Of a stretch of 64,000 bases of DNA, positions 38,820-52,122 are shown one piece after another. The position numbers and the translations under genes were made by a program. Source of the DNA: Candidatus Methylomirabilota bacterium (GTDB lineage: Bacteria; Methylomirabilota; Methylomirabilia; Rokubacteriales; CSP1-6); assembly GCA_036506275.1 (NCBI GenBank), contig DASXSB010000031.1, positions 642 through 64,641 of the forward strand, in the 5' to 3' direction. The stretch's first letter is position 1. The number at the start of each line of letters is the position of its first letter. Below the pieces are notes generated by a model. That model saw only the letters and a program-made list of their open reading frames with translations, searched no databases and was not told the DNA's origin.

Positions 38820-41621
38820 CTAATCGCGCCGGAGCGGCAGCGGCCAGGAGCGGCGGGCGAGGAAGCGGTCGATGCCGGCGCGGCCGTCGGCGGCGGCGAC
38901 GAGGCGACCGAAATCGCGCGCCTCGCGGGCGAGACCGGCTTCGAGGCCTTCCGTCAATCCCACGCGCACGACGTCGAGGATGGCGCGCGCGCAGTCGGCG
39001 CGGGGCTCGTGTCGATGATGCGCGAGCAGGCGCTCGACCTCCGGGTCCCGCTCCACGTTCGGAAACGCCATCGTGTCGGGATCGGCGAGCGGGGACCACA
39101 GGTGGCCCTGAAAGCGTCCGAGCGCGATCGCGCGGGCGATGCCGAGGGCGTGGGAAAGCGCGTCGGCGGGCGCCACCTCGTCGACCAGGCCCAGCGACCA
39201 GGCATGCTGCGCCGAACGCCGGCGGCCGTCGAGGAGCAGCACCAGCGCTTCCACGAGGAGCGTGTACATCTGGCCACCGCCGGCGCGCGCCCATCGTAGC
39301 GCGAGGCGCGGGAGCATCTGGGTGCCGCCGAATCCCGGGATCACGTGCAGGTTGATCTCGGGCTGGCCGATCTCGGCGCGGTCGCCGGCCACGCGGTACG
39401 CGCACGCCATCTGGAGCTCGTTGCCGCCGCCGAGCGCGTAGCCGTCGACGGCGCTGACGACGGGCGCGCGGAGTCGCGCCAGTCGCCGGAACACCCGTTG
39501 CGCGCGCGCGGCGAACGCCTCCACGTCCGCCGCCGTCGCGAACGCGCGCAGCTCGCGGATGTCCGCCCCCGCCACGAACATGGCGCCGGCGCCGGTGACG
39601 ACGCACGCCTTGAGATCGCGCTCGGCCTCGAGAACGTCGAGCACGCGCTCGAGGTCGTCGAGGGTGGCGCGGCCGATGGCGTTCGCGGGCGGCGAATCGA
39701 TGGTGACGAGCGCGACCAGCTCCGGAAATCCCGGACGCACGGGATCGAGGCGGGCGCGCACGACGGAGCCATCCACGAAGCGCGACCCCCACGCCCCGTA
39801 CACCTCGCGTACCGTGCGGGCGCCGTCGAGGCTCGGCCCCGCGCCCACGCGGACGGCGAGCGTGCCCGTGTGGCGATTCTCTGCGATGGTCTGGTTGGCG
39901 TCGGCGAGCTCTTCCCACCGTCCCACCGCCGGCGGCGCCACCGCGAGAGCGCCGGCGTCGATCAGCCGAACCACCTCCTCCGCCTGCCACGCGTTGGAGA
40001 GATGGCTGCCGAGGATGGCGAACGCGGGAAAGAGCACGCGCTTCTGGTGCATCCACACGTTCGGCGCGTAGAAGGACAGCCGCTGGGCGTCGGTGGCCTC
40101 GAGATAGACGATGCGGCCGCTGAAGGGACGCGCCAGGAACGTGCTGATGCCGAGCGTGTCCTGACCGGCGCGTTCCACGATCACGTCCGGGTTCCCGCGG
40201 GGATTGTCGGGCGTCGCGAGGAGGCGACCCACGGCCTGGCCGAACGGCTTCAGCGTGCGGTCCTGGTAGCGACGAAAGCCCTCCGGGTCGGTGTCGTAGT
40301 CGGGCATCGCGTCCGGCCACTCGAGGCCGCCGCGCCGCGCCAGCGATTCGAGACTCACGACGGCCTGCACGGGTAACGTGGCGCGGACGTGCTCGGCTTC
40401 GTCGTCGCGCGCCGTCACCACGACCACGCGCGCGGACGCGCGGGCGGCGGCATGGACGGCGTCGGCGGCGACGGCGTCGTCCCCGCCCCCGCGGTGATAG
40501 ACGAGCACGCCTGCGTGCGGCCGCAATCCCGCTCTTCCGTACATCTCGGCGGCCGACGTCGCGCCGGGCTTGCCGAAGAAGGTCAGCGTGTAGCCGCTGG
40601 TGGCGCCGTAGAACACCAGGCGACCACCGGGCGCGAGCAGATCGATCATGCGGGGGAAGAGATCCCGCCCCACCGAGGAGACGACCACGTCGACCAGATC
40701 CCCGTCGTTCCGTTCCCGCACGAGCGCGCGGAAGGCCTCCCCCGCCGCCCGCCACTCGTACCACTCCGCACGGTCGCGCGGCACGGGAGTGAAGACGCCA
40801 TCGAGGCCGGGCGCGCGGCGATTCACGTAGGCGGCGGCGCCACGCTCGAGGATGCGCTTGCCCTTGTCGTCGGTGGACACGAGACCGACGACCCGCGCGC
40901 CCCGCCGCGCGGCGCAGGTGACGGCATAGGTGCCGGTCCCGCCGGCGGCGCCTTCCACGAACACGCGCTCGCCGACCTCCACTCCCGCCACGTCGTAGAG
41001 CGCCTTGTAGACGGTCTCGAGGTCGAGCATGAACGACGCGCCTTCGGGCAGCGTGAGGCGCTCGGAGTGGGCGAGGAGCTGCGGCGCCTGACACCGCACG
41101 AACTGCGCGAACGATCCGTCCGGGGTCTCGTAGCCCTGGATCTTGAAGTCCGCGTGCATGGGATCGTCGCCCGCCCGCGGCGAGAGGAGATCGGAGACGC
41201 CGGGATACAGAACGCGCAGCTCGCCGATCTTCAATCGTCCCTCGCGCGCGGTCTCGCTCCCCACCGCCGCCACCAGCACCACGGCGCCGCTCCCCGCGAC
41301 GTGAAGGTCGCGGTCGTGGAGATCGAAGACGGAGATGGGCACGCCGCGGGCGGCGAAGACGGTGTTGTAGGTGAGGCCGGCGTACAGCACGTAGCCGAGG
41401 GCGTCGTTCGGTCCGAGCGCGGGCGTGGGGACGATCGCGCGCTGGAGGGCGTGGGCAGGCTCGCCGTGGGCGGGCCGGCCCCACCGATCCTTCACCACCG
41501 CCCACACCTCGTGGAGCGGAGGCACCGGGTCGAGCCCGGGCCGGAACGGCGCGCCGACCGGGATCCGTTCGCCGTCCCGCTCCCACCAGCTCCGGTCGAT
41601 GTCCGCCGCCGGCTCCGTCAC
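38820..41621 (-). CDS. fused crotonyl-CoA carboxylase/reductase-like enoyl reductase (N-terminal) and enoyl-CoA hydratase/crotonase (C-terminal)
   Basis: 933 aa. Residues about 1-560 align to the CCR family (DDPMHADFKIQGYETPDGSFAQF, GAAGGTGTYAV, GRLVFYGATSGY). Residues about 640-933 form a crotonase fold (VVTGAGAMFVAGADIREL and VDGYALGGGNELQMACAYRVAG). Confidence 0.7.
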   Translation of the reverse strand: MTEPAADIDRSWWERDGERIPVGAPFRPGLDPVPPLHEVWAVVKDRWGRPAHGEPAHALQRAIVPTPALGPNDALGYVLYAGLTYNTVFAARGVPISVFDLHDRDLHVAGSGAVVLVAAVGSETAREGRLKIGELRVLYPGVSDLLSPRAGDDPMHADFKIQGYETPDGSFAQFVRCQAPQLLAHSERLTLPEGASFMLDLETVYKALYDVAGVEVGERVFVEGAAGGTGTYAVTCAARRGARVVGLVSTDDKGKRILERGAAAYVNRRAPGLDGVFTPVPRDRAEWYEWRAAGEAFRALVRERNDGDLVDVVVSSVGRDLFPRMIDLLAPGGRLVFYGATSGYTLTFFGKPGATSAAEMYGRAGLRPHAGVLVYHRGGGDDAVAADAVHAAARASARVVVVTARDDEAEHVRATLPVQAVVSLESLARRGGLEWPDAMPDYDTDPEGFRRYQDRTLKPFGQAVGRLLATPDNPRGNPDVIVERAGQDTLGISTFLARPFSGRIVYLEATDAQRLSFYAPNVWMHQKRVLFPAFAILGSHLSNAWQAEEVVRLIDAGALAVAPPAVGRWEELADANQTIAENRHTGTLAVRVGAGPSLDGARTVREVYGAWGSRFVDGSVVRARLDPVRPGFPELVALVTIDSPPANAIGRATLDDLERVLDVLEAERDLKACVVTGAGAMFVAGADIRELRAFATAADVEAFAARAQRVFRRLARLRAPVVSAVDGYALGGGNELQMACAYRVAGDRAEIGQPEINLHVIPGFGGTQMLPRLALRWARAGGGQMYTLLVEALVLLLDGRRRSAQHAWSLGLVDEVAPADALSHALGIARAIALGRFQGHLWSPLADPDTMAFPNVERDPEVERLLAHHRHEPRADCARAILDVVRVGLTEGLEAGLAREARDFGRLVAAADGRAGIDRFLARRSWPLPLRRD

Positions 41622-41664: not shown

Positions 41665-42420
41665 GGCGATGCGGACGATGCCGCGCTCCACCGGCTTGAA
41701 GCGAGCCGCCACCTCGGGGTCGTGCCCGGCCACGATGAGCTTGTCAGCGCCGGCGAGGGCGTGGATGGTGTCGAAGGCCGCCAGCATCTGGGGCAGGCTG
41801 GTGATGATCTGCACAGGCTGATAGCGTTCGACGTTCCGGTAGAAATGCGAGGCGTCGGACGTCAGCACCACGCGTCCGCGCGCGGTCTCCACGGTGACGA
41901 TCTGGAGCCCGGCCGTGTGACCGCCGACCCAGTGCACGCTGAGCCCAGGGAAGACCTCGCGCGAGCCTTCCACGAGCCGGATCCGGTTCGCGTAGTTGAG
42001 GGTGACGAGCGAGCCCATCGAGGGCGCGTTCGCCAGCATCTTGTAGACCTCGTAGCGGGCGATCTGCCCCGTCCAGAACGCCAGCTCCTCCTTCTGAACC
42101 CAGAACTCGGCGCGCGGAAAGAGCGAGTGGCCCGCCCAGTGATCCCAGTGCAGATGCGACACGAGCGCGATCGGGATGGCGTCCGCCTTCACCCCGAGCC
42201 GTTCCACCATCGCGGCCGGGCTCACGAAGTCGCGCAGGCCCCGCTGCACGGCGTCCTCCTCGCGGCATCCGGTGTCGACGAGGACGGGATGCGGCCCGCC
42301 GAGGACGAGCCACACGAAGAAGTCGAGCGTGATCGCCTCGTGGGAGGGCTCGCGATAGAAGAACTGGCAGGCAGTGGTGTCGCGGGCGCCGTACCTGAGC
42401 GCGTAGACCTCGAGCGCCAT
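41665..42420 (-). CDS. MBL-fold metallo-hydrolase (N-acyl-homoserine-lactonase-like)
   Basis: ATG at 42420 gives MALEVYALRYGAR...; HxHxDH motif in LVSHLHWDHWAGH. The start overlaps the upstream gene's stop (ATGA). Confidence 0.75.
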
Positions 42421-43448
42421 CAGCGCGCGACCTCCGCCCGCACGATGCGGGCGCCGGCGCCGAGCGCCTGTAGCTTTCTGCGCGCGACGTCGCGCGGCAG
42501 GGGCACCATCCCGCAGTTCGTGCACGGATAGAGCCGATCGGCCGGGACGAACTCGAGCGCGCGGCGAATGGTGGCGGCGACCTCCGCCGGCGTCTCGACA
42601 CGATGGGTCGCGACGTCGATGCACCCGACGAGCACGTCCTTGCCGCCGAGCAGTGCCAGCAGCGAGAGGGGCACGCGCGAGTTCGCGCACTCGAGCGAGA
42701 TCTGATCGATCCGGCTTCCCGCCAGCAGCGGAAACGTCTTCTCGTACTGTCGCCACTCCGCGCCGAGCGTCTTCTTCCAGTCGACGTTGGCCTGGATTCC
42801 GTAGCCGTAGCAGATGTGGACGGCGGTCCGGCACGTGAGCCCTTCGATGGCGCGATGAAGCGCCTCGATGCCCCAGTGGGCCACGTCGTCCATGTAGACG
42901 TTGAAGGCGGGCTCGTCGAGCTGGAGCACGTCGAGCCCGGCCGCCTGCAGCTCGCGCGCCTCCTCGTTGATGACCCGCGCGAACTCCAGCGCGAGCCGGG
43001 CGCGATCGCGATAGTGCTCGTCGGCGAGCGTGTCCACGATGGTCATGGGGCCGGGGATCGTGAACTTGAGCTGGTGATCGGTGTGCGCGCGCGCCCATCG
43101 CACCTCGTCGACGTGCACGGGAGCGCGCCGCCGCACGGGTGCCGTCACCGTCGGCACCTCCGCCTTGTAGCGGTCGGCGCGGATACCGATCGTCACCCGC
43201 CGGCCGAAATCGATCCCGTCCAGCTTCTCGAGGAACCCGTGCACGAAATGCTGTCGCGACTGCTCGCCGTCGGTGACGATGTCGATGCCCGCCGCCTCCT
43301 GGTCCTTGAGCGCGACGAGCACGGCATCACGCTGGCCGTCCGCGAGGCTCTCGGGTGGCAGCCGCCACGGCGCCCACAGGGTTTCCGGCGTCGCGAGCCA
43401 GGCGGGCTTCGGAAGACTCCCGGCGATCGTCGTGAGTAGCACCGACAC
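42420..43448 (-). CDS. cobalamin-independent methionine synthase (MetE) C-terminal-domain-like protein
   Basis: 342 aa with a UROD/MetE_C-like fold (MSVLLTTIAGSLPKP..., ICYGYG, and Cys residues for zinc binding). Confidence 0.7.
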   Translation of the reverse strand: MSVLLTTIAGSLPKPAWLATPETLWAPWRLPPESLADGQRDAVLVALKDQEAAGIDIVTDGEQSRQHFVHGFLEKLDGIDFGRRVTIGIRADRYKAEVPTVTAPVRRRAPVHVDEVRWARAHTDHQLKFTIPGPMTIVDTLADEHYRDRARLALEFARVINEEARELQAAGLDVLQLDEPAFNVYMDDVAHWGIEALHRAIEGLTCRTAVHICYGYGIQANVDWKKTLGAEWRQYEKTFPLLAGSRIDQISLECANSRVPLSLLALLGGKDVLVGCIDVATHRVETPAEVAATIRRALEFVPADRLYPCTNCGMVPLPRDVARRKLQALGAGARIVRAEVAR

Positions 43449-43534
43449 TCCTCGTCACGCCGTGGTCGTCCCGGCGCGTCCGGGGGAGGATATCAGCGAA
43501 GAACGATGATGGCGAGCGGGCGGGCAGACGACGA

Positions 43535-44683
43535 CTAGAAGAACAGGCGCGCGAGGCCCTTCACGGCGTGAGAGGACACGAAGCGGAGCCGCCGCGCGTA
43601 TGCCACGACGAGCGAGCGCCCGCCAGCGGCTCCGTACTCGGTGGCCATGAACTCGGGCGACGGGAAGAGCAGCGAGCGCGCATAGCGCGCGCGTTCACCG
43701 AAGGTCGGAAGCGCGAAGAGGGCGGCCAGGCTCTCGCCGCCCTCGACCCCGCCCTCGGACGACGCCAGTCTCGCCAGCCATCGATCACGCACGCGGAGGG
43801 GGGCACGGCCGAGCGTATCCCGCACGCCCGGCGGCACCGGCGTGTAGAGGAGGTTGCACACGACGTTGATCAGCGGCGCGATGAGCGGCGCGACCGCGGC
43901 CGCCTCCGCTTCCGCCACGAACGTCAGCCAGTCGAGCCCGGCGCCTTCGCGGCGGACGAGGCGATCGATCTCGTAGAGCCAGAGGAGGGGCGCGTCCGCG
44001 CCCTTGTGGACGGCATGGAGACAGAGATGGAGAAGCAGATCGGCCGGCGCCAGCCGCCACGTCTCCACGCCGGCGACGGTCGCGCGGCGGCAGCGATGCC
44101 ATACGCGCTCCATCGCCACGCGCTCGCCGAACGGCGGGTACGCGATCGTCCAGTGGGGCTCCACGATCATCCAGCCGTGGCGCTGCTTCGCGAACTCGAG
44201 CGTGTAGGAGAACGCGCGCGCGAACCCGGGCCGGCGGTCGATCTCCTGGAATCCGCGCTCCTGCAGGAGCGCGGTCAGCGCCTCCAGCTCGCTCTTGCGC
44301 ACGAGCAAATCGAGATCGCCCATCGGACGCACGCTCGCATCGTCGTGGAGGCGCTCGCCGAGCGCGAGGCCTCGGAGCGGCGCGACCGACAGCGAGCGCT
44401 GGGCGGCGGCCCCGACGATGTCGGCGAGCTCGCTCGCGAACATCAAATTCCGGGCGGCCACTCCCGCCGCGCGCGCCCTCAGCGCTTCGCGCGCGAGCTC
44501 CGGCACCGCGGCCGCGGTCCCGCCCGCCACGAGGGCGCGGTGCAGGAGCGGCGTCAGCGCGTGGCGGTCGGCCTCGTCGAGCGCCGCCGTCCAGCCGTCC
44601 GCGGGCACGAGACCCAGGAGCGTGTCGGCGCTCTCGCCGCGCATGAGGGCGAGCAGCAGCGGATGCGCGCGAGGCGGCGTCAT
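43535..44683 (-). CDS. uncharacterised nucleotidyltransferase-family protein (Pol-beta-like NTase), lasso-cluster associated
   Basis: ATG at 44683 gives MTPPRAHPLLLALMRGESADTLLG...; NTase motif GDLDLLV (hG-x-DxD). It overlaps the kinase stop (ATGA). The track ORF 43535..45700 is over-extended. Confidence 0.75.
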   Translation of the reverse strand: MTPPRAHPLLLALMRGESADTLLGLVPADGWTAALDEADRHALTPLLHRALVAGGTAAAVPELAREALRARAAGVAARNLMFASELADIVGAAAQRSLSVAPLRGLALGERLHDDASVRPMGDLDLLVRKSELEALTALLQERGFQEIDRRPGFARAFSYTLEFAKQRHGWMIVEPHWTIAYPPFGERVAMERVWHRCRRATVAGVETWRLAPADLLLHLCLHAVHKGADAPLLWLYEIDRLVRREGAGLDWLTFVAEAEAAAVAPLIAPLINVVCNLLYTPVPPGVRDTLGRAPLRVRDRWLARLASSEGGVEGGESLAALFALPTFGERARYARSLLFPSPEFMATEYGAAGGRSLVVAYARRLRFVSSHAVKGLARLFF

Positions 44684-45663
44684 GCCGCGAGGTCCACCTC
44701 GACGGCCGCCCGCACCGCGCGCAGGCGATGGAGGCCGCGGGGGAAGCTCAAGCGCTTGACGGGAACGGCGACCGCGAGCCGTGCCGCCAGCTCGAACTGG
44801 CGCGCGAGACGAGCGGGATCGCGAACGAGCGTGTTGAACGTGGCGCGCACGAGCTCCACGAACGCCGCGCGCGGCGAGAGCGGCTCGATCGCGACCGCGG
44901 GCGGGCGGGGACCCTTTGGAGAGCCAAGGACGTAAAGCGCCGCCAGCGGCGCCGCCTCCGCGTGGCCGAGACCATTGCGGAGGGGGATCACGAGCTTCGG
45001 CGTGAGATCGTTCATCGGCGTCCCGCCCGCGGCGTCCCCGAGCACCGCGCGCGCGACGTGAGGAAAGAGCTTGATGCGCGCCGGGCCGGGATGGGCGAGA
45101 TAGCCCCGGGGATCCGGCGTCAGCACCAGGAGATCGTCGGTGAGCAGCGCGTGTCCCGCGCGGAGAAAGGCGGCGCCGAGGCTCGACTTGCCGTACCCGC
45201 AGTCGCCCACGAAGCCGACGGCGCGGCCGTTCACCACCGCCGCCGTCGAGTGGAGCGGTTCCCGGCCCAGCCGGAGCAGCGCGAACGAGAGCGTGTGGCC
45301 GAGGAGGTACGTGCGAAACGCCTCGAAGGCGTCCCTGCGCAGCGGCCGGCAATCGATGGCGCGACCGTCGGCGGCGACCAGGAACTCGAAGAGTCCGCGC
45401 CAGCGCACGTAGTCGGCGCCGTCGGCGAGGCGCGCGTGCTCGAACCACGCTGCCGGCGCCCGGCGGCGGAGCTGACGCCGCGCGGGCGCGAAGAACGCGG
45501 CCGGGCGCTCGTGGATCGCGGCCTCGGGCGGCCGGCCGTCTTCTCCACGCGGACACGGAAGCGGCACCACGCTCGCCACGCGCAGTCCGTAGACCTCGTA
45601 GGTGGCGGGATCGCCGGGCGCCGCGCCACGAGAGGCGCGCACGGTCGGGATCGCCGTCCTCAT
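44680..45663 (-). CDS. HPr-kinase-related serine kinase (lasso peptide tailoring kinase family)
   Basis: ATG at 45663 gives MRTAIPTVRASRG.... It has the HprK C-terminal-like domain with Walker A GDCGYGKSSLG. Its start overlaps the precursor stop (ATGA). Confidence 0.8.
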   Translation of the reverse strand: MRTAIPTVRASRGAAPGDPATYEVYGLRVASVVPLPCPRGEDGRPPEAAIHERPAAFFAPARRQLRRRAPAAWFEHARLADGADYVRWRGLFEFLVAADGRAIDCRPLRRDAFEAFRTYLLGHTLSFALLRLGREPLHSTAAVVNGRAVGFVGDCGYGKSSLGAAFLRAGHALLTDDLLVLTPDPRGYLAHPGPARIKLFPHVARAVLGDAAGGTPMNDLTPKLVIPLRNGLGHAEAAPLAALYVLGSPKGPRPPAVAIEPLSPRAAFVELVRATFNTLVRDPARLARQFELAARLAVAVPVKRLSFPRGLHRLRAVRAAVEVDLAA

Positions 45664-45815
45664 CCGCTCCCCGCGCGCGTCTTGGGGCCGGGGTTGGCAC
45701 CGTTGTTGGCTTCGTTCTTCGCCTTCTGCGTGCCCTCCGTGAGCGTGCGGAGGTCGCCGTAGCGCCGGAGGCGCGGCGGCGCGTACGGCTTCTTCGTGTG
45801 GGTCGGTGTCGTCAT
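45660..45815 (-). CDS. lasso peptide precursor (51 aa)
   Basis: MTTPTHTKKPYAPPRLRRYGDLRTLTE|GTQKAKNEANNGANPGPKTRAGSG. The leader matches YxxPxLx3Gx5Tx exactly (Y11, P14, L16, G20, T26). The core starts with Gly1 and has Glu8 for an 8-residue macrolactam. A GGGGGAG RBS lies 6 nt upstream. The ATG overlaps the upstream cyclase stop and the stop overlaps the kinase start. The gene is missing from the ORF track because it is under 60 aa. Confidence 0.85.
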   Translation of the reverse strand: MTTPTHTKKPYAPPRLRRYGDLRTLTEGTQKAKNEANNGANPGPKTRAGSG

Positions 45816-47692
45816 GTCGTTCTCCCCCAGAAGCGCTCGAGCCAGCGATCCACCGTGACGAGGAACCAGACTTCCCAGCGCAGCTCTTTTTGACCGGCGA
45901 CGTAGCGGTCCACCAGCCGTCGCGCCGATCGGAGGTCCACGTAGCGGCCGAGGCGGCCGGAGCGGTTCTCGAGCGCGGCCGGAGGATCGCGGCGGCACAG
46001 CGCGGTGAGGCTCCGGTCCATCGTGTCCGTCCAGTCGCCCTTGCCGCGCCGGAAGCGGATGGTGTCGGGCACGATGCCGCGCATCGCGCTTCGAAGTAGC
46101 CGCTTCCGCTCACCGCCGTGCGTTCGCCGCGTCGACGGCACGGAGAGGACGTACTCCACGAGCCGGGCATCGAGGAACGGAAAGCGCGTCTCCACGCCCG
46201 CCGCCGCCGACGCGCGCTCGTCGACCTCGAGCTTCAACACCTGGTACGCGCTGGCCACGCAGAGATAGCTGTCGGCTTGCGCGAACGATGGAAACGGGAC
46301 GGTGTGCCACGGCTCGCGCAGGCGATCGCGCAGGCCGACGGCGCGCGCCAGTCCTCCGTTGATCCACGGCGGCGGCGCCCGCCGCAGAGCGCGCTTGGCG
46401 ACGTACTTCATCCGCGGCGGGACCAGCAGCGCGAGGGCCATGCCCGCGAACTGCGCCCGGCTCCCGCCGTACCACGAGGCGAACGCGCGCGTGTCGTGGA
46501 GGAAGCGGCGGAGCCGGAGCTCGTGCACGAGGTCGGCGAGATACCCGACCTCGTCGAGGAGATGATCGCCGCCGTCGCCGGAGAGCAGCACGCGGCAACC
46601 CCACGCCAGAACGGCGTCGGTGCCGGCGAGCACGCTCTGGCGAGCCGCTCCCACGATGGGGCTCTCCACCTCCCACAGCAGCTCGTCGATCCGGTGGAGA
46701 GGATCATCGTCGGCGGCGTGGATCTCATGGCCCTTGCGACCGGTGGCGGCGACGACGTCCCGCGCGAACGTCCGCTCGTCGGAGGCAGGGTCATCGGAAA
46801 AGAGCGTGAACGCCTCCAGCGCCGGCACGCCACCGTCGGGGCCGCCGCCGTACCGCTCGGCCGTGCACAGGATCGCGGAGGAGTCGAGGCCACCACTAAC
46901 GAAGACGCCGATCGGGAACTCGCTGCGCAGGCGGCAGCGCACGGCCTCGGCGAACAGCGTCAGGAAGTGGTCGACGTACTCGTCGTCGCGCGCGTAGCGC
47001 GTCTCGCGCAGGGGATCGATGGCCCAGTACCGCCCCACGCGGGCGACGCCGTTGCGCACGGTCAGCACGTGTCCCGGCGGGAGCCGGCACATCCCGCGAA
47101 AGAACGTGCGGTCGTGATCGCGCTCGCGGAACTCGCGGAGCAGGAACGCGAGCACCATCTCGTCGTCGGGCTCCGGGATGGCGCCGCGCGCGGCCAGCAA
47201 CGGCTTGATCTCGGATCCGAAGAACAGCGTCGGCCCCGCCCATGTGTAGTGCAGGGGCTTGAGCCCGAGGCGGTCGCGCGCGCACACGAGCGTTTGCACG
47301 CGGTCGTCCCACAGCGCGAACGCGAACTCGCCGACCATGTGGTCGAGCGCGCGCAGACCCCAGCGGCGGTACGCGCGAAGCACGAGCGCGGGGTCGGTGG
47401 CGCCGGCCCCCGGCGCCATGTCGGCGCCGAGCGTCACCGTCAGCTCCTGGCGGTTGTCGAGGCGCCCATCCCAGACGAGCCGGACGTCACCGGTGTCGTC
47501 GATGACGGGCTGCTTTTCGTGGAGCGATTCCGGCGTCGTGTAGAGCAGGCGATGCCCGAGACCGATCGGCCCCTCGTGCCACTGGCCTTCCCCATCCGAG
47601 CCGCGATGCGCGATGGCCTTGACCATCCGCGCGAGCGTGGTCGGGTCCACGGGGCGACCGTCGGTGCGATGGATTCCGACCAGTCCGCTCAC
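45812..47692 (-). CDS. lasso peptide lactam synthetase, asparagine-synthetase-like cyclase paralog 2
   Basis: GTG at 47692 gives VSGLVGIHRTDG.... There is no catalytic Cys2 (Ser instead). It carries the PP-loop FVSGGLDSS and a full AsnB-like C-terminal domain. Its start overlaps the paralog-1 stop (GTGA). Confidence 0.8.
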   Translation of the reverse strand: MSGLVGIHRTDGRPVDPTTLARMVKAIAHRGSDGEGQWHEGPIGLGHRLLYTTPESLHEKQPVIDDTGDVRLVWDGRLDNRQELTVTLGADMAPGAGATDPALVLRAYRRWGLRALDHMVGEFAFALWDDRVQTLVCARDRLGLKPLHYTWAGPTLFFGSEIKPLLAARGAIPEPDDEMVLAFLLREFRERDHDRTFFRGMCRLPPGHVLTVRNGVARVGRYWAIDPLRETRYARDDEYVDHFLTLFAEAVRCRLRSEFPIGVFVSGGLDSSAILCTAERYGGGPDGGVPALEAFTLFSDDPASDERTFARDVVAATGRKGHEIHAADDDPLHRIDELLWEVESPIVGAARQSVLAGTDAVLAWGCRVLLSGDGGDHLLDEVGYLADLVHELRLRRFLHDTRAFASWYGGSRAQFAGMALALLVPPRMKYVAKRALRRAPPPWINGGLARAVGLRDRLREPWHTVPFPSFAQADSYLCVASAYQVLKLEVDERASAAAGVETRFPFLDARLVEYVLSVPSTRRTHGGERKRLLRSAMRGIVPDTIRFRRGKGDWTDTMDRSLTALCRRDPPAALENRSGRLGRYVDLRSARRLVDRYVAGQKELRWEVWFLVTVDRWLERFWGRTT

Positions 47693-49566
47693 GCGGCGGC
47701 GCCCACGACGACGGTCCCCTCGGGCGCCCACTGCTTCAGCCATCGTTCGAGCTTGACGAGGTTCCACAGAAGGGTGCGGGAGGGCACGTGTCCGCCGAGA
47801 TACCGGTCGCGCATCTGCTCGGCCTCGGCGCGCCGCACGTAGGCGAAGACACGGGCGTCGGCGCCGAAGAGCTCGCGATCCCAGCATCGCGCCTCCAGAC
47901 GCGCGGTGAGCTCGGGATCCCGGGATCCGACCGCGTGGGTGTTCTCCGCACCTCGCGCCGGCCCGGCCGCGGATGCGAGGGCATGCTGGACGAACTGCTT
48001 GCGGTATCCGCGTCCGAGCTTCACATCGGCGGGCACGGCGAGGAAGAACTCGATGAGTCGCCGGTCCAGGTACGGGTACCGGCACTCGAGCCCGAACGCC
48101 GACGCCACGGCGTCCATCTGATCGAGCGCGAACACCGTGGCCGGATTCGTGAGTGCCCGGTACGTCGTCTCCTGGCACCAGGTGGGAAACGTGCGCGGCG
48201 GACGCTCCACCGTCCGCTCTTGCATGCCCACCCGCTTCGCGAACGCGGGCTCGATCCACTCCGGCACCTGCCGTCCCGCCAGCGTCTTCACGCGCCGGCG
48301 CCACGCGGGAGAAAGCTGGCCCCAGAGCAGCCAGAGCAGCGTGGCGGCCGAGGCGTCACCGCCGTAGGCGGCAGCGCGGAGGCGGAGGTCGCGGCGCAGT
48401 CGGAGCAGCCGCCCGGCGCGGAGGAGGTCCGCCAGGAATCCGTCCTCGGCGCTCTGGCTCAGCTCGTCGGCGCCGAAGCCGCTGAGCAGGGTGCGACAGC
48501 CGACGTTCCGCGCCGGCTCGAGAAGGAGGGGGACCGTCGGCAAGCCGTCGTGGTGCGGTGTTTCCCCGCACTCCATGAACGGCTCGAACGACGTCACCGG
48601 CGCGCCGCCCGCGGACGGAACGACGCGACGTATCGGTGTCCCGTACACCAGCTCCAGCCATTCGAGCGCGCCCGCCTCCTCCGCGTACATCTCGTCGTCG
48701 AAGAGCGTGAGGCCCTCCAGGGGAGGCAATCCCGGATCGTCGGCGCGCAACGATTCCGCGGTGGCGGCCACCGACGTGGAATCGATCCCGCCGCTGAGCA
48801 ACATTGCGACGGGACCTCTCCCCGGGAGCCGGCACCCGACCGCGTCCCGGAACAGCGCCGTGAAGTGATCGAGATAGTCGTCCTCGCGGCGATAGCGAAG
48901 CTCGCCTCCACTCGCGGGCGTCCAGTAGCGAACGATCTCCACGCCATGGGGACGGAGCCGCAGAACGTGTCCGGGCGGGAGCCGCCGAATCTCCGCGAAG
49001 AAGGTGGCGCTGGAATCGCGAAAGCCCATGAGGAGGAGATCGGCGACGGTGGCCTCGTCCAGCCCGCGGCCGACGTCGGGATCGGCGAATAGTGCCTTGA
49101 TCTCCGACGCGAACAGCAGGCGGCGGCCGTTCCAGTGGTAGTAGAGCGGCTTGACGCCGAGCGCGTCGCGCGCGCAGAGCAGCGTCCGCGTGCGCTCGTC
49201 CCACAGCGCGAGCGCGAAGTCGCCGGCGATCCGCGCAAACGCGTCTTCACCGCGGGCGCGGTATATCTCCAAGATCATCTCGGCGTCGGACCAAGCGGAC
49301 GTCGCGCGCTCGGCGCCGAGCACGGCGCGATCGTCGACTCGTCCGTCCCAGGTGATCCAGCACTGGCCCGCCGCATCCGCCACCGGGGCCTTTTCGCGCA
49401 GCGACGCCGGCGTGGTGGCGAAGAGGCGGTGCCCGAGCGCGATCGGCCCTTTCGCCCACTGCCCCTCACCGTCCCGCCCACGGTGCGAGAGAGCCTCGGT
49501 CATCCGCGCCAGCAGCGCGGGGTCGGCGAGACCGCCGTCGACGCGGCAGATACCGGCGATGCCGCT
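47689..49566 (-). CDS. lasso peptide lactam synthetase, asparagine-synthetase-like cyclase paralog 1
   Basis: ATG near 49566 gives MSGIAGICRVDGG.... It has Ser, not Cys, at position 2 and the PP-loop LLSGGIDST. Its start overlaps the B2 stop (ATGA). My local indexing is uncertain by about 3 nt. Confidence 0.8.
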   Translation of the reverse strand, partial: SGIAGICRVDGGLADPALLARMTEALSHRGRDGEGQWAKGPIALGHRLFATTPASLREKAPVADAAGQCWITWDGRVDDRAVLGAERATSAWSDAEMILEIYRARGEDAFARIAGDFALALWDERTRTLLCARDALGVKPLYYHWNGRRLLFASEIKALFADPDVGRGLDEATVADLLLMGFRDSSATFFAEIRRLPPGHVLRLRPHGVEIVRYWTPASGGELRYRREDDYLDHFTALFRDAVGCRLPGRGPVAMLLSGGIDSTSVAATAESLRADDPGLPPLEGLTLFDDEMYAEEAGALEWLELVYGTPIRRVVPSAGGAPVTSFEPFMECGETPHHDGLPTVPLLLEPARNVGCRTLLSGFGADELSQSAEDGFLADLLRAGRLLRLRRDLRLRAAAYGGDASAATLLWLLWGQLSPAWRRRVKTLAGRQVPEWIEPAFAKRVGMQERTVERPPRTFPTWCQETTYRALTNPATVFALDQMDAVASAFGLECRYPYLDRRLIEFFLAVPADVKLGRGYRKQFVQHALASAAGPARGAENTHAVGSRDPELTARLEARCWDRELFGADARVFAYVRRAEAEQMRDRYLGGHVPSRTLLWNLVKLERWLKQWAPEGTVVVGAAA

Positions 49567-50003
49567 CATCGTGGAGATCCCGCGCGCGTGGAGAGCAGAG
49601 GCGCGAAGCCGCATCCGTCGTCGCCGAACAGCACTTCCCCGTCGCGCTCGAGCCAGGCGTGGGCGGCGAGCGCGCCGTCGCGGCGGGCGACGCCGATCTG
49701 GAGCGTGGTGGCGATGCCGCGGCGGCGGAGGAGCCAGGAGAGAACGAGCGCTTGCTTGAGGCAGGTCACGCGCCCCGGCGCGTAGCGGCCGGCGACCTCG
49801 ACCAGCCACGCCAGCCGTGCGATCGACAGCGACGACCCTGCCGGCGCCGGGGGGCACCCGGGAAAGACGTCGGCCAGCTTCAGCAACGACGCGAGGGGAA
49901 GAAAGACGAGGCCGGCATCGGCGACGAAGAAGAGAACCCAGGCACGAACGAGGAGCGCGCGCTCCCCCCGCGGAAGCTGCGCGAGCTTAAGCAGCCGCCC
50001 CAC
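49563..50003 (-). CDS. lasso peptide leader peptidase B2 (transglutaminase-like cysteine protease)
   Basis: Probable GTG start about 14 nt before the B1 stop gives VGRLLKLAQLPRGERALLVRAWVLFF...; Cys-His-Asp triad context in GRVTCLKQALVLSWLLRRRGIATTLQIGV and ALAAHAWLERDGEVL (Transglut_core3-like). Confidence 0.8.
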
Positions 50004-50286
50004 GCTCCACGTCCACCAGCTCGTTCTCGCGCAGGGCCACCACCAGGCGCAGGAGGTCCCACTCGGCCTCGTCCGGCGTGACATCGTACTCGGCGAGAAC
50101 CGCCGCGAGGGCAGCGCTCAGCGTCGGATCACGGGTGAGCGCCTGCCAGATGGTCGTGCCCACCGGATCGAGACCGAAGTAGACGCCCGTGGTGAGGTTG
50201 AGAATGACGGCCTCGCCGTCGAGATCGCGCGAGACCACGTCGGAGCGAATGCGGATGCGCGTGTCGAGCGTGATGCCGCCCTTCAT
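49987..50286 (-). CDS. lasso peptide leader-binding protein B1 (PqqD-like RRE)
   Basis: ATG at 50286 gives MKGGITLDTRIRIRSDVVSRDLDGEAVILNLTTGVYFGLDPVGTTIWQAL..., a typical PqqD/RRE winged-helix sequence. The track ORF extends far upstream as an antisense artefact. Confidence 0.8.
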   Translation of the reverse strand: MKGGITLDTRIRIRSDVVSRDLDGEAVILNLTTGVYFGLDPVGTTIWQALTRDPTLSAALAAVLAEYDVTPDEAEWDLLRLVVALRENELVDVERGAAA

Positions 50287-50405
50287 CGCAGCCGAAGAGC
50301 CATCGCACCCGGCGGCGCCGGCATAGCCGAGAAGGCTCCAAGCACTCGGCATCACCGTAACAGAGACCGGCGGCGCCGGATGCGCATTAAATGACCGCCG
50401 CCCCC

Positions 50406-50477
50406 GTCTGATCGCGGGTGCGACCCGGTCTGATCCGAGGCGGCCCCGCGTGATCGCGGCGCGACGGAGGTCTGATC
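50406..50477. promoter_or_regulatory. array of four direct repeats (G)GTCTGATC(G) at about 21-22-bp spacing in the divergent lasso-operon/GGT promoter region
   Basis: Plus-strand copies at 50406, 50428, 50449 (degenerate, TGATCGC only) and 50470. They lie in the 260-bp intergenic region between the B1 start (50286) and the GGT start. Confidence 0.45.
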
Positions 50478-50547
50478 GCCCGCCAGGCCCGGTATGATGG
50501 CGGGCGTGACTTCGTCTCGATGGCCGGAGGCGCACGCGCGCTGCGGC

Positions 50548-52122
50548 ATGGTCGCCTCCCCTCACGCGCTCGCGTCTCAGGCGGGCGTGGCGATCCTCGC
50601 CGCCGGCGGCAACGCCATCGATGCCGCGATCGCCGCCGCCATCACGCTCGCGGTCGTCTATCCGCACATGAACGGCATCGGCGGCGACAACGTCTGGCTC
50701 ATCTACGACGCCGGCCGCGCCGACCTGCGCGGCCTGAACGCCGCTGGCCGCTCCGCGGCGTCGGTGACGCTCGACGCCTACCGGGCGCGCCACGACGGCG
50801 CGATGCCGATCCGCGGCGGTGCCGCCGCGCTCATGGTGCCGGGTACAGTGTCGGGGTGGTGGGAGGCGCATCGCTACAGCCGGGATCGCATGGGCTCGCC
50901 GGTGGCGTGGACGACGCTCTTCGACCACGCCATCCGCCACGCGCGCGACGGATTTCCGGCATCGGCCGCCCAGCGGCGGATGACCACGGCCGCGCCGGGA
51001 ATCTTCGAGCCGAGCGCCGCTGCCGACGTGCGGCGGACGCTGTGGCCGATCTACCATCCGGATAGACTGACCGCGCCTGCCTTCGTCCAGACCGATCTCG
51101 GCGCCACGCTGGCGGCGGTGGCGGCGGGCGGGAGCGACGAGTTCTATCGCGGCGCGCTCGCGCGGCGCTTGGTGGCAGGCGCCGCCGCCGTCGGGAGCCC
51201 GCTCACCGCTGCCGACCTGGAATCACACCGCGCGGATTGGGTCACGCCGCTGCGCATCCTTTATCGGGGTGGGGAGGCGGCGACCCTTCCCCCGCCGACG
51301 CAGGGCATGTCCGCGCTCGCGATCCTGGCCCTGCTCGAAGGCTTCGAGCTCGATGTCCTCGACGACGCCACCTACGTCCATCTCGTCGTGGAGGCGACGA
51401 AGCTCGCCTTCGAGGACCGCGACCGCTACCTTGCGGACCCCACCGTCGTCGCCGTGCCCGTGGAGACGTGTCTCGACCGTGGGCGCCTCGAGCACCGTCG
51501 CACGGCCATCTCCGCGCGAGCGGCGAGGCCGGCCGCGAGCGCGCATGCGGGCGGCGGTGACACGGTGGCCATCGTGACCGCGGACGCGGACGGCAACGCG
51601 GTGTCGGTGATCCAGAGCCTCTACCACGAGTTCGGAGCGGGCGTGGTGGCGGGAGACACCGGCATCGTGCTGCAGAACCGCGGCGCCTTCTTCTCGCTCG
51701 ATCCGGCGCATCCCAACTGTCTGGCGCCGCGCAAGCGCACCGCCCACACGCTGATCCCGTCGATGTACCTCGTCGGGGGGCGGCCACGCTTCGTCTACGG
51801 CACCATGGGCGGCGAAGGGCAGCCGCAAACACAGGCCGCGCTCGTCACACGACTGGTCGACCGTGGCCTCGGCCCCCAGGCCGCGGTCGAGGCACCGCGC
51901 TGGCTTTTCGGCCGCACGTGGGGCGAGGTGTCGCGCAGCCTTCGCCTCGAAGGGCGCTTCGGTCCGGCGACGGCGGAGGCGCTGCGCGCGCGGGGGCACG
52001 ACGTCGTGCTGATCGACGACTGGAGCGATCTCGTCGGCCACGCCCAGGTGATCCAACTCGACGGCGACGGCCTGCGCGGCGGATCGGACCCGCGCGCGGA
52101 CGGTGCTGCTCTCGGGTGGTGA
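50548..52122 (+). CDS. gamma-glutamyltransferase-family protein
   Basis: GGT motifs are present (MVASPHALASQAGVAILAAGGNAIDAAIA; catalytic Thr region TTHTLIPSMYL-like; GGEGQPQTQAAL). The start could be at 50494 or 50548. Confidence 0.8.
   Translation: MVASPHALASQAGVAILAAGGNAIDAAIAAAITLAVVYPHMNGIGGDNVWLIYDAGRADLRGLNAAGRSAASVTLDAYRARHDGAMPIRGGAAALMVPGTVSGWWEAHRYSRDRMGSPVAWTTLFDHAIRHARDGFPASAAQRRMTTAAPGIFEPSAAADVRRTLWPIYHPDRLTAPAFVQTDLGATLAAVAAGGSDEFYRGALARRLVAGAAAVGSPLTAADLESHRADWVTPLRILYRGGEAATLPPPTQGMSALAILALLEGFELDVLDDATYVHLVVEATKLAFEDRDRYLADPTVVAVPVETCLDRGRLEHRRTAISARAARPAASAHAGGGDTVAIVTADADGNAVSVIQSLYHEFGAGVVAGDTGIVLQNRGAFFSLDPAHPNCLAPRKRTAHTLIPSMYLVGGRPRFVYGTMGGEGQPQTQAALVTRLVDRGLGPQAAVEAPRWLFGRTWGEVSRSLRLEGRFGPATAEALRARGHDVVLIDDWSDLVGHAQVIQLDGDGLRGGSDPRADGAALGW

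What the first reader, a model, noticed from the sequence alone, without database searches (positions are those of the whole stretch)
43535..45663. HprK-like kinase and Pol-beta nucleotidyltransferase as probable tailoring enzymes
The kinase has the Walker A GDCGYGKSSLG and the HprK C-lobe seen in lasso precursor Ser kinases. The downstream NTase has the hG-x-DxD motif (MGDLDLLV). NTase genes recur next to kinase-containing lasso clusters, but their chemistry is, as far as I know, undefined. The overlap-coupled genetic fusion here (A-K-N) argues that both act on the precursor.
Basis: inference. Interest (0 to 1): 0.55.

Follow-up and report, generated by a model that had tools for sequence, protein, structure and literature searches.

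The report
Lasso-peptide kinase and nucleotidyltransferase tailoring pair
The two genes are real and are the last two genes of a seven-gene lasso-peptide operon in a Methylomirabilota genome; this kinase plus nucleotidyltransferase tailoring pair is already known, but the peptide here lacks both known phosphorylation sites.

Summary
Observation confirmed. Window 44680-45663(-) encodes a 327-aa HprK/PEPCK-fold P-loop kinase (K). Window 43535-44683(-) encodes a 382-aa PF14907 nucleotidyltransferase (N). Both quoted motifs are present.

K and N end a tightly coupled operon, B1-B2-C1-C2-A-K-N. K homologues in 63 loci from about eight phyla nearly always lie beside lasso genes. N lies nearby in 30 of 40 loci with full flanks.

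K has the exact H-G-G-G-K-S-D-D motif and spacing of the characterised lasso kinase BsfK (29% identity). N has invariant D123/D125/E175. It folds like ANT(2'')-Ia, the same template reported for PsmN.

- **N chemistry is not wholly undefined.** PsmN is required in vivo for hexose addition to the phospho-serine of pseudomycoidin. In-vitro chemistry is still open.
- **The precursor ends ...PKTRAGSG.** It has neither a C-terminal Ser (paeninodin type) nor Ser3 (Bsf/Lpp type). A Thr/Ser in x-[ST]-[RK] is conserved in 28 of 28 related precursors and is the likeliest acceptor.
- **The ATGA overlaps run through the operon from B2 to N.** They show operon membership, not a fusion.

Verdict: a known kind of tailoring module in a variant form. 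Interest is modest.

The parts
49987..50286 (-). B1: discrete RiPP recognition element (PqqD-like), 99 aa
   Evidence: PF05402 PqqD at E 3e-15. Called as a gene in the source contig. Overlaps the start of B2.
49566..50003 (-). B2: lasso leader peptidase (transglutaminase-like Cys protease), 145 aa
   Evidence: PF13471 Transglut_core3 at E 6e-24. The Cys (VTCLKQ) and His (AHAWLE) motifs are visible in the sequence. ATGA overlap with C1.
47689..49569 (-). C1: additional Asn-synthetase-like lasso cyclase paralogue, 626 aa
   Evidence: Asn_synthase at 2e-31 plus GATase_7. SGGIDS PP-loop at residue 259. 38% identical to C2. Orthologues are present in the loci that carry two cyclases.
45812..47692 (-). 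C2: probable canonical lasso cyclase, 626 aa from GTG 47692 (the source annotation starts at 47650, 612 aa)
   Evidence: Asn_synthase at 3e-54. SGGLDS at residue 266. The single cyclases of related loci score higher against C2 than against C1. Its stop overlaps the ATG of A.
45660..45815 (-). A: 51-aa precursor MTTPTHTKKPYAPPRLRRYGDLRTLTE|GTQKAKNEANNGANPGPKTRAGSG. Leader 27 aa, with Y-17, P-14, L-12 and T-2. Core 24 aa, with a predicted G1-E8 ring.
   Evidence: NF033521 lasso_leader_L3 at E 1.6e-4, above its cut-off. The YxxPxL register matches PMC10368454. 51 homologous precursors were found beside K homologues. Purifying selection.
45678..45680 (-). Codon of core Thr19 in the P-K-T-R motif, the proposed phospho-acceptor (alternative: Ser23, nt 45666-45668)
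   Evidence: An x-[ST]-[RK] site occurs in 28 of 28 Methylomirabilota-type precursors (24 Thr, 4 Ser). Ser23 is not conserved across them. The acceptor role is inferred.
44680..45663 (-). K: HprK/PEPCK-fold P-loop peptide kinase, 327 aa. Catalytic set H138, G153, G156, G158, K159, S160, D176, D177.
   Evidence: Hpr_kinase_C matches in 23 of 23 family members (best E 7e-7; the window protein scores 0.004, below the gathering score). Profile against PDB HprK/P at 3e-6. AF2 pLDDT 86.5; Foldseek finds PEPCK and the HprK/P C-domain at E about 1e-6. 29% identity to BsfK, E 8e-12.
45184..45207 (-). Walker A / P-loop G-D-C-G-Y-G-K-S of K
   Evidence: Read directly from the sequence. G153, G158, K159 and S160 are invariant in 23 homologues; D154, G156 and Y157 are nearly invariant.
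43535..44683 (-). N: PF14907 nucleotidyltransferase-fold protein, 382 aa. R104-G105, G122-D123-x-D125 and E175-P-H-W are invariant.
   Evidence: PF14907 at 1e-45. Alignment of 27 homologues. AF2 pLDDT 91.4; Foldseek best hits are ANT(2'')-Ia 5cfu/4wqk/5cfs/4xje (TM 0.67 on the target), then MenT1, LnuA and FKRP.
44309..44320 (-). G-D-L-D metal-binding motif of N
   Evidence: Read directly from the sequence. Invariant in the alignment. Corresponds in type to the D134/D136 pair mutated in PsmN (PMC6993621).

Best explanation
K and N are the two tailoring enzymes of a class-II-type lasso-peptide operon (B1-B2-C1-C2-A-K-N) in a Methylomirabilota bacterium.

Proposed order of events:
1. The 51-aa precursor is bound through its YxxPxL leader by the RRE protein B1.
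2. K, a P-loop kinase of the HprK/PEPCK fold, transfers one or more phosphates from an NTP to a hydroxyl in the C-terminal tail of the still-linear core. The most probable site is Thr19 of the conserved P-K-T-R motif; Ser23 is the alternative.
3. N, a Pol-beta-like nucleotidyltransferase-fold enzyme with a D123/D125/E175 metal site, then elaborates that phosphate. The only experimental precedent (PsmN) is hexose addition to the phosphate. Whether N transfers the sugar itself or first makes a nucleotidylated intermediate is unknown.
4. B2 removes the leader after Glu-1, and a cyclase (C2, perhaps together with C1) joins Gly1 to Glu8.

Shown here: gene identities, motifs, folds, synteny and conservation of the precursor motif. 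Inferred: every enzymatic step, the acceptor residue and the order of events.
For: - **Operon and Pfam identities:**
- **Kinase motif:** H138-G153-G156-G158-K159-S160-D176-D177 has the same residues and the same spacing as the mutationally validated H148-G163-G166-G168-K169-S170-D186-D187 of BsfK (PMC10368454).
- **Similarity to BsfK:** 29% identity over 245 aa, E 8e-12.
- **Kinase fold:** HprK/P C-domain and PEPCK.
- **Synteny:** in 63 loci from Methylomirabilota, Nitrospirota, Gemmatimonadota, Acidobacteriota, Chloroflexota, Binatota, Oligoflexia and Methylocystis, K lies beside B1/B2/C genes in nearly all. An N homologue is present in 47 of 63 loci, and in 30 of 40 with at least 7 kb on both sides.
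- **K/N coupling:** the 4-nt K/N overlap recurs in L065, L066, L067, L068, L069 and L070.
- **N catalytic residues and fold:** invariant D123, D125 and E175. The ANT(2'')-Ia fold match includes 5cfs and 4xje, the templates reported for PsmN (PMC6993621).
- **Acceptor candidate:** one x-[ST]-[RK] site in 28 of 28 related precursors, including Thr-to-Ser replacements.
- **Literature precedent:** kinases act on linear precursors and are stimulated by B1 (PMC10368454). PsmN-dependent hexosylation needs prior phosphorylation (PMC6993621). A 2026 paper calls HprK kinases and NTP transferases 'typical secondary modification enzymes' of paeninodin-like lasso clusters (PMC13381572).
- **PF14907 elsewhere:** it also occurs beside a kinase in a phosphonate gene neighbourhood (PMC8942020). 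This is a weak hint that the family acts on phosphoryl groups.
Against: - **No biochemistry:** there are no experimental data for this clade.
- **Known acceptors absent:** neither known acceptor position (C-terminal Ser; core Ser3) is present, so the substrate site is a guess. The conserved Thr could instead be conserved for steric or threading reasons.
- **Weak single-sequence kinase matches:** the window K scores below the curated cut-offs of Hpr_kinase_C (17 against 33 bits) and TIGR04352 (27 against 200 bits).
- **N is dispensable in some clusters:** 10 of 40 full-flank loci lack it.
- **N can be silent:** lppN deletion had no effect in a related system (PMC13381572).
- **Missing supply and export genes:** no nucleotide-sugar gene and no exporter lie in the window cluster.
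Confidence: 0.75

Rival explanations
1. N is a true nucleotidyltransferase that leaves an NMP (AMP, UMP, CMP or GMP) on the phosphate or on a hydroxyl of the peptide as the final modification. On this view the hexoses seen with PsmN arose from host enzymes acting on a nucleotidylated intermediate.
For: The fold and metal site are those of nucleotidyl-transferring enzymes (ANT(2'')-Ia, LnuA, MenT1). N has no glycosyltransferase motifs. The authors of the PsmN work and a later review explicitly leave this possibility open (PMC6993621, PMC9266682).
Against: The only products observed with a family member are +162 and +324 Da hexose adducts; no NMP adduct was reported (PMC6993621). FKRP-type NTase-fold enzymes, which transfer a phospho-alcohol from a CDP-activated donor, are also among the structural neighbours. 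The fold therefore does not dictate an NMP end product.
Confidence: 0.2
2. N is not a biosynthetic enzyme. It is a self-resistance or immunity enzyme, or an unrelated passenger, that inactivates the lasso peptide or another antibiotic by nucleotidylation.
For: The closest solved structures are antibiotic-resistance nucleotidyltransferases (ANT(2''), LnuA) and a toxin (MenT1). N is absent from 25% of full-flank K-containing clusters. In the Acidobacteriota loci it is often on the opposite strand, 2-5 kb away.
Against: The structural matches are weak (E about 2e-3, 12-18% identity). In the window clade N is translationally coupled to K. B2-N fusions are reported in Firmicutes (PMC8498205). PsmN changes the product itself (PMC6993621). 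N has no PADLOC defence-family match.
Confidence: 0.07
3. K and N belong to a separate, merely co-located RiPP pathway of the linear-phosphopeptide (LPP) type described in Bacillota, not to the lasso pathway.
For: An RRE + HprK-like kinase + NTP transferase + signal-peptidase-I module forms its own RiPP family, which often sits beside lasso clusters (PMC13381572).
Against: There is no SpI-type peptidase, second RRE or second precursor in the window operon. The only precursor gene lies between C2 and K and overlaps both. The same B1-B2-C-(C)-A-K-N order recurs in many loci.
Confidence: 0.03
4. K is a housekeeping HPr kinase/phosphorylase of carbon-catabolite control that happens to lie here.
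For: The only named sequence matches are to HprK/P families.
Against: Scores are far below the equivalog cut-offs (TIGR00679 15.8 against 240 bits). Similarity covers only the P-loop core (about 50 residues by sequence). The N-terminal domain differs. The gene lies in lasso clusters in essentially all 63 loci. It is closer to the peptide kinase BsfK.
Confidence: 0.02

Closest known systems
bsf lasso cluster of Bradymonas sediminis FA350 (BsfA/B1/B2/C/D/K/N; PMC10368454)
   Same: It has the same gene set: discrete B1 and B2, a cyclase, an HprK-like kinase and a nucleotidyltransferase. K is 29% identical to BsfK, with identical residues and spacing in the H-G-G-G-K-S-D-D motif. The leader carries YxxPxL and the core starts with Gly and is predicted to form an 8-residue ring. 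Its kinase also acts at a site that is not the C-terminal Ser.
   Different: BsfK phosphorylates core Ser3, whereas here residue 3 is Gln. The Bsf leader has Ile at -2 and this one has Thr. The bsf cluster has one cyclase and an ABC exporter, whereas the window cluster has two cyclase paralogues and no exporter. BsfN is itself uncharacterised.
Pseudomycoidin cluster of Bacillus pseudomycoides (PsmK/PsmN; PMC6993621)
   Same: It pairs a kinase with an 'uncharacterised nucleotidyltransferase' in a lasso cluster. PsmN has a D-x-D pair essential for function and was modelled on ANT(2'')-Ia (5cfs, 4xje), which are also among the top structural matches of N here.
   Different: The Psm acceptor is the C-terminal Ser, which is absent here. 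psmN lies between B2 and D, whereas here N is coupled to K. The host is a Firmicute. Direct sequence comparison with PsmN could not be made.
Paeninodin-type kinases PadeK, ThcoK and SyanK (PMC9266682, PMC8498205)
   Same: They are HprK-homologous kinases that act on linear lasso precursors, share the His-Lys-Asp-Asp catalytic set and can polyphosphorylate.
   Different: These kinases specifically recognise a C-terminal Ser, described as conserved across their precursors. Only 11 of 51 precursors in the K family surveyed here end in Ser, and only 1 of 28 in the window's own clade.
LPP linear phosphopeptide RiPPs of Bacillota (LppK/LppN; PMC13381572)
   Same: The module is RRE + HprK-like kinase + NTP transferase. 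The kinase polyphosphorylates a core Ser. The role of the NTP transferase is unresolved.
   Different: The LPP pathway uses a signal-peptidase-I-type leader peptidase and has no cyclase. The window operon has B2 and two cyclases and no SpI.
HPr kinase/phosphorylase and ANT(2'')-Ia (structural relatives)
   Same: K shares the P-loop kinase fold of the HprK/P C-domain and PEPCK. N shares the Pol-beta-like nucleotidyltransferase fold with an Asp-x-Asp metal site.
   Different: Sequence identity is only 10-18%, the extra domains differ and the genomic context differs. Neither protein is a member of these families by curated thresholds.

Membership tests
Lasso peptide biosynthetic gene cluster (split-B type) | Discrete RRE (PqqD-like B1) and transglutaminase-like leader peptidase B2 | tested here: met
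   PF05402 at 3e-15 and PF13471 at 6e-24.
Lasso peptide biosynthetic gene cluster (split-B type) | Asn-synthetase-like macrolactam synthetase with an ATP PP-loop | tested here: met
   Two copies are present: Asn_synthase at 2e-31 and 3e-54, with SGGIDS and SGGLDS.
Lasso peptide biosynthetic gene cluster (split-B type) | Precursor with the YxxPxL leader motif at -17 to -12, Thr at -2, a small first core residue and Asp/Glu at core position 7-9 | tested here: met
   Y11/P14/L16 and T26 fit the register. The core begins G1 with E8. NF033521 at 1.6e-4, above its cut-off.
Lasso-precursor HprK-like kinases (PadeK/ThcoK/SyanK/PsmK/BsfK) | Conserved H...G..G.GKS...DD catalytic motif | tested here: met
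   H138, G153, G158, K159, S160, D176 and D177 are invariant in 23 homologues and G156 is nearly invariant. Spacing is identical to BsfK H148...D187 (PMC10368454).
Lasso-precursor HprK-like kinases (PadeK/ThcoK/SyanK/PsmK/BsfK) | Detectable sequence similarity to a biochemically characterised member | tested here: met
   BLASTP against BsfK (translated from the sequence printed in PMC10368454): 29% identity over 245 aa, E 8e-12.
Lasso-precursor HprK-like kinases (PadeK/ThcoK/SyanK/PsmK/BsfK) | HprK/P C-domain (PEPCK-like) fold | tested here: met
   AF2 pLDDT 86.5. Foldseek finds HprK/P with target TM 0.57-0.67 and PEPCK with query TM about 0.55, E about 1e-6.
Lasso-precursor HprK-like kinases (PadeK/ThcoK/SyanK/PsmK/BsfK) | Encoded inside a lasso cluster | tested here: met
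   True in the window. Nearly all of the 63 related loci have B1, B2 or C genes beside K.
Paeninodin-type phosphorylated lasso peptides | Precursor ends in the acceptor Ser | tested here: not met
   The precursor ends ...K-T-R-A-G-S-G. Only 1 of 28 clade members and 11 of 51 family precursors end in Ser.
Bsf/Lpp-type phosphorylation | Acceptor Ser (or Thr) at core position 3 | tested here: not met
   The core is G-T-Q-K...; position 3 is Gln. Ring-region Ser/Thr is not conserved among the two-cyclase relatives.
Lasso-precursor HprK-like kinases | Kinase activity on the precursor (+80 Da) | not testable with these tools
   Requires expression and mass spectrometry.
PsmN-like lasso nucleotidyltransferases (PF14907) | Membership of Pfam PF14907 'uncharacterised nucleotidyltransferase' | tested here: met
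   E 1e-45, 157 bits against a 31-bit cut-off, residues 29-267.
PsmN-like lasso nucleotidyltransferases (PF14907) | Conserved D-x-D metal-binding pair | tested here: met
   D123 and D125 are invariant in 27 sequences. A candidate third carboxylate, E175, is also invariant, but its role is inferred.
PsmN-like lasso nucleotidyltransferases (PF14907) | ANT(2'')-Ia-like nucleotidyltransferase fold | tested here: met
   AF2 pLDDT 91.4. Foldseek finds 5cfu, 4wqk, 5cfs and 4xje at E 1.5e-3 to 5e-3, target TM 0.64-0.68. No match by sequence alone.
PsmN-like lasso nucleotidyltransferases (PF14907) | Direct sequence orthology to PsmN or BsfN | not tested
PsmN-like lasso nucleotidyltransferases (PF14907) | Co-occurrence with the kinase in lasso clusters | tested here: met
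   N is present in 47 of 63 loci and in 30 of 40 with full flanks.
Bona fide HPr kinase/phosphorylase | Passes the HprK/P equivalog model over its full length | tested here: not met
   TIGR00679 scores 15.8 bits against a 240-bit cut-off and PF07475 scores 17 against 33 bits. Only about 45 residues align.

The most novel reading that the evidence does not exclude
This clade may be a third site-class of lasso phosphorylation. Its kinase would modify an internal Thr/Ser in a conserved P-x-[ST]-[RK] motif 2-8 residues from the C-terminus. The resulting phospho (and, through N, phospho-glycosyl or phospho-nucleotidyl) group would itself be the steric plug holding an otherwise small-residue tail in the ring; the window core has no aromatic or large aliphatic residues. 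The second cyclase paralogue (C1) would perform a further, undescribed ATP-dependent step on a core that offers only one side-chain carboxylate.
Probability: 0.2. Interest if true: 0.6.

Novelty: new variant of a known kind. Interest (0 to 1): 0.35.

Why it matters
The kinase plus nucleotidyltransferase pair is an accepted tailoring module of lasso peptides, but what the nucleotidyltransferase does chemically is still unsolved after three studied systems (Psm, Bsf, Lpp).

This survey shows that the module is widespread in uncultivated soil and groundwater phyla: Methylomirabilota, Acidobacteriota, Nitrospirota, Gemmatimonadota and others. In these clusters the precursors do not follow the 'C-terminal Ser' rule used to recognise phosphorylated lasso peptides. 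They carry a different, strictly conserved P-x-[ST]-[RK] site instead.

That gives genome miners a new precursor signature. It gives biochemists a compact, tightly coupled A-K-N cassette in which to test acceptor choice and N chemistry. It is an incremental addition to a known system, not a new one.

Tried and rejected
- **Sequence searches of K and N against PDB chains.** K gave only marginal HprK hits (E 0.05) as a single sequence; the family profile reached 3e-6. N gave nothing, either alone or as a profile. Fold comparison was needed.
- **NCBIfam.** There is no model for N. K is far below the cut-off for HprK_rel_A.
- **PADLOC defence families.** No match for K or N, so I dropped a defence or toxin reading.
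- **Promoter and terminator scan of 43000-51000.** Nothing above shuffled expectation, so operon boundaries rest on gene order only.
- **Literature.**
  - The paeninodin paper (PMC4919450) is not held.
  - No supplements are held for the PsmN paper.
  - A 'PF14907' search found only a phosphonate survey.
  - Searches for 'two cyclases', for Rokubacteria/Methylomirabilis with lasso, and for 'ScmC' (the name of the faint PF27840 hit on K homologues) gave nothing relevant.
- **K as housekeeping HprK/P, and K/N as a separate LPP-type pathway.** Considered and rejected; reasons are given under rivals.
- **Ser23 as the acceptor because it is the only Ser near the end.** I considered it, but it is not conserved beyond the nearest relatives, so Thr19 is preferred and Ser23 kept as the alternative.
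Full report
**1. What is at the coordinates**

On the minus strand the interval 43535-45663 holds two complete ORFs.
- **K** runs from ATG 45663 to TGA 44680 (327 aa). It contains ...VGFVGDCGYGKSSLGAAFLRAGHALLTDDLLV..., which includes the quoted Walker A.
- **N** runs from ATG 44683 to TAG 43535 (382 aa). It contains ...RPMGDLDLLVRK....

Both quoted motifs are therefore present at the stated place.

The 51-codon ORF 45660-45815 upstream (MTTPTHTKKPYAPPRLRRYGDLRTLTEGTQKAKNEANNGANPGPKTRAGSG) ends in an ATGA that is also the K start. K ends in an ATGA that is the N start.

The same kind of junction joins the upstream genes as well. C2/A is at 45812-45815 and B2/C1 at 49566-49569. C1/C2 is a GTGA at 47689-47692 if C2 uses that GTG; the source annotation starts C2 42 nt later. 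B1 overlaps B2 by 17 nt.

Pfam assigns the genes as follows:

| Gene | Window coordinates (-) | Pfam result |
|---|---|---|
| B1 | 49987-50286 | PqqD |
| B2 | 49566-50003 | Transglut_core3 |
| C1 | 47689-49569 | Asn_synthase / GATase_7 |
| C2 | 45812-47692 | Asn_synthase / GATase_7 |
| N | 43535-44683 | PF14907 NTP_transf_5, 1e-45 |
| K | 44680-45663 | Hpr_kinase_C, 0.004, below the gathering score |

The small ORF matches NCBIfam 'lasso RiPP family leader peptide' above its cut-off. The finding therefore lies at the 3' end of a seven-gene lasso-peptide operon, B1-B2-C1-C2-A-K-N. A divergent gamma-glutamyltranspeptidase gene lies upstream and a Meth_synt_2 gene downstream. An identical K protein is recorded from a Methylomirabilota MAG.

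**2. Are the genes real and intact?**

- K has more than 800 database relatives covering 93-100% of its length. N has more than 300.
- All 23 aligned K homologues hit Hpr_kinase_C, best E 7e-7.
- The precursor gene differs from three close relatives (L064-L066) by 17-20 synonymous and only 6-8 non-synonymous codons. Most non-synonymous changes fall in the N-terminal leader. It is a gene under purifying selection.

**3. The kinase**

The alignment of 23 homologues shows invariant H138, G153, G158, K159, S160, D176 and D177, with G156 nearly invariant. The Bradymonas study lists the conserved and mutationally tested lasso-kinase motif as H148-G163-G166-G168-K169-S170-D186-D187 (PMC10368454). The window protein has the same residues at exactly the same spacing.

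I translated the bsfK sequence printed in that paper. It aligns with K at 29% identity over 245 residues, E 8e-12.

The AF2 model is confident (pLDDT 86.5, pTM 0.85). Foldseek retrieves HprK/P C-domains (target TM 0.57-0.67) and, over more of the chain, ATP-dependent PEP carboxykinases, at E about 1e-6. A family profile finds HprK/P in the PDB at 3e-6.

K is not a housekeeping HprK/P. It scores 15.8 bits against TIGR00679's 240-bit cut-off, and only the P-loop core aligns by sequence.

**4. The nucleotidyltransferase**

In 27 homologues, R104-G105, G122-D123-x-D125, R151, E175-P-H-W, H223 and H226 are invariant. The AF2 model is very confident (pLDDT 91.4).

There is no PDB match by sequence. 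By fold, the best matches are the aminoglycoside nucleotidyltransferase ANT(2'')-Ia (5cfu, 4wqk, 5cfs, 4xje; target TM 0.64-0.68). MenT1, LnuA and, more weakly, FKRP follow.

5cfs and 4xje are the templates Zyubko et al. reported for PsmN. From them they chose the D134/D136 pair whose mutation abolished PsmN function (PMC6993621).

GDLDLL is the D-h-D element. The 'hG' element is more likely R104-G105. E175 as the third carboxylate is my inference from invariance and its position on a strand.

**5. Context in other genomes**

One scan of species-representative genomes with the K profile gave 62 loci. They come from Methylomirabilota/Rokubacteria, Nitrospirota, Gemmatimonadota, Acidobacteriota, Chloroflexota, Binatota, Oligoflexia and one cultured Methylocystis.

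BLAST of the window proteins against all ORFs of these loci shows B1, B2 and/or C beside K in nearly every case. An HMM of N finds a homologue in 47 of 63 loci, and in 30 of the 40 with at least 7 kb on both sides of K.

The loci fall into two layouts:
- **Window clade.** N (40-86% identical) follows K directly, often with the same 4-nt overlap (L065-L070). In L001 it follows an ABC transporter.
- **Acidobacteriota.** A more distant N (24-30% identical) lies 2-5 kb away, often on the other strand.

The association is therefore strong but not obligatory. The physical coupling is a feature of this clade only.

**6. The precursor and the likely acceptor**

With Y at -17, P at -14 and L at -12 (the register used in PMC10368454) and Thr at -2, the core is GTQKAKNEANNGANPGPKTRAGSG, with Gly1 and Glu8 as ring partners.

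All previously characterised lasso kinases phosphorylate a C-terminal Ser (PadeK, ThcoK, SyanK, PsmK; PMC9266682, PMC8498205) or core Ser3 (BsfK, PMC10368454; also LppK in a non-lasso relative, PMC13381572). Neither residue exists here.

I collected 51 precursors beside K homologues. Only 11 end in Ser.

Within the Methylomirabilota-type clade, 28 of 28 cores carry exactly one x-[ST]-[RK] site in the tail, usually P-K-T-R. It is Thr in 24 and Ser in 4, and lies 2-8 residues before the end. Only one of these cores ends in Ser.

Ser23 of the window peptide is conserved as Ser/Thr only in the nearest relatives and a few others. It is absent in L010, L013, L021 and L069. Thr19 is therefore the best candidate acceptor and Ser23 the alternative. 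The Thr could instead be conserved for threading or steric reasons. This cannot be settled computationally.

**7. State of knowledge on N**

- PsmN is required in E. coli for one or two hexoses (+162/+324 Da, exact mass C12H20O10) on the phosphorylated C-terminal Ser. The authors could not say whether it is a new kind of glycosyltransferase or makes an intermediate used by host enzymes (PMC6993621; PMC9266682).
- Whether such enzymes act on the precursor or on the folded lasso is unknown (PMC8498205).
- BsfN has 'no evidence for function and timing' (PMC10368454).
- Deleting lppN changed nothing in B. subtilis (PMC13381572).
- PF14907 also appears beside a kinase in a phosphonate gene neighbourhood (PMC8942020). 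This is a weak hint that the family acts on phosphoryl groups.

There is one in-vivo phenotype, hexosylation rather than an NMP adduct, but no defined reaction.

**8. Mechanism proposed**

B1 binds the leader and recruits K. K phosphorylates the tail hydroxyl of the linear precursor. N elaborates the phosphate. B2 cleaves after Glu-1. A cyclase closes the G1-E8 ring.

The gene identities, motifs, folds and synteny are shown here. All enzymatic steps, the acceptor and the order are inferred from the Pade, Psm and Bsf precedents.

**9. Rivals**

This remains possible (0.2).
- **N as a resistance enzyme or passenger.** Unlikely, given the coupling to K, the reported B2-N fusions and the PsmN phenotype (0.07).
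- **A separate LPP-type pathway.** Excluded by the absence of an SpI peptidase, a second RRE or a second precursor (0.03).
- **Housekeeping HprK/P.** Excluded by scores and context (0.02).

**10. Comparison and novelty**

The closest system is the bsf cluster, which has the same gene set, a related kinase and a non-C-terminal acceptor. The pseudomycoidin cluster comes next.

The locus fails the defining substrate feature of both known site-classes, and it has two cyclase paralogues and no exporter. I therefore file it as a new variant of a known kind, not as a plain member and not as anything categorically new.

A specialist would not be surprised by K and N in a lasso cluster. The conserved P-x-[ST]-[RK] signature across uncultivated phyla and the paired cyclases are the only mildly surprising points. 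Interest 0.35.

Noticed in passing
window 47689-49569(-) and 45812-47692(-); also L001, L005, L010, L013, L021, L067, L069, L070 (L004 has C-A-C): There are two tandem Asn-synthetase-like lasso cyclase paralogues, 38% identical, both with an intact SGGxDS PP-loop. They are conserved as orthologous C1/C2 pairs across several phyla. The single cyclases of related loci resemble C2 more than C1. The window core, like most of the two-cyclase cores, offers only one side-chain carboxylate (E8), so the role of the second enzyme is unexplained.
   Followed up: partly
window 45660-45743(-) (core peptide); precursors in L001-L071: A P-x-[ST]-[RK] motif is conserved in the tail of 28 of 28 Methylomirabilota-type precursors. 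These cores are rich in Gly, Ala, Lys and Asn, and the window core has no aromatic or large aliphatic residue, so a conventional steric plug is not obvious.
   Followed up: partly
window 43535-50286 compared with L001 10965-12809: The window operon has no ABC exporter gene. The Rokubacteria relative L001 has one inserted between K and N, and the Bsf and Psm clusters also have a D gene.
   Followed up: no
L001 1-5331; L067 11282-18960; L071 14918-18900: Sugar and polysaccharide genes lie directly beside the cluster in three of the long related contigs. L001 has GT4, DegT aminotransferase, PIG-L, WbqC and Glycos_transf_4 upstream. L067 and L071 have Poly_export, Wzz and Wzy_C downstream, and L067 also an epimerase. 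This may bear on sugar supply for N or may be coincidence; it is not seen in the window.
   Followed up: no
L067 3368-4927: A 519-aa TPR-repeat protein is inserted between B2 and C1 in one relative's otherwise identical operon.
   Followed up: no
window 42420-43448(-); L064 4797-5825; L065 3623-4651: A Meth_synt_2 (cobalamin-independent methionine-synthase-like) gene follows N on the same strand after an 86-nt gap, both here and in the two closest relatives with enough sequence. It is probably plain synteny of close relatives, but membership of the operon is not excluded.
   Followed up: no
K homologues P0005, P0009, P0066 and others: Many K homologues carry a precomputed faint or weak hit to a recent Pfam family, PF27840 'ScmC'. 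It is not in the local Pfam copy and I could find no literature on it.
   Followed up: partly
window 38820-41621(-): A 933-aa ORF looks by eye like a fusion of a crotonyl-CoA-reductase/alcohol-dehydrogenase-like domain with an enoyl-CoA hydratase domain. It is unrelated to the lasso operon.
   Followed up: no
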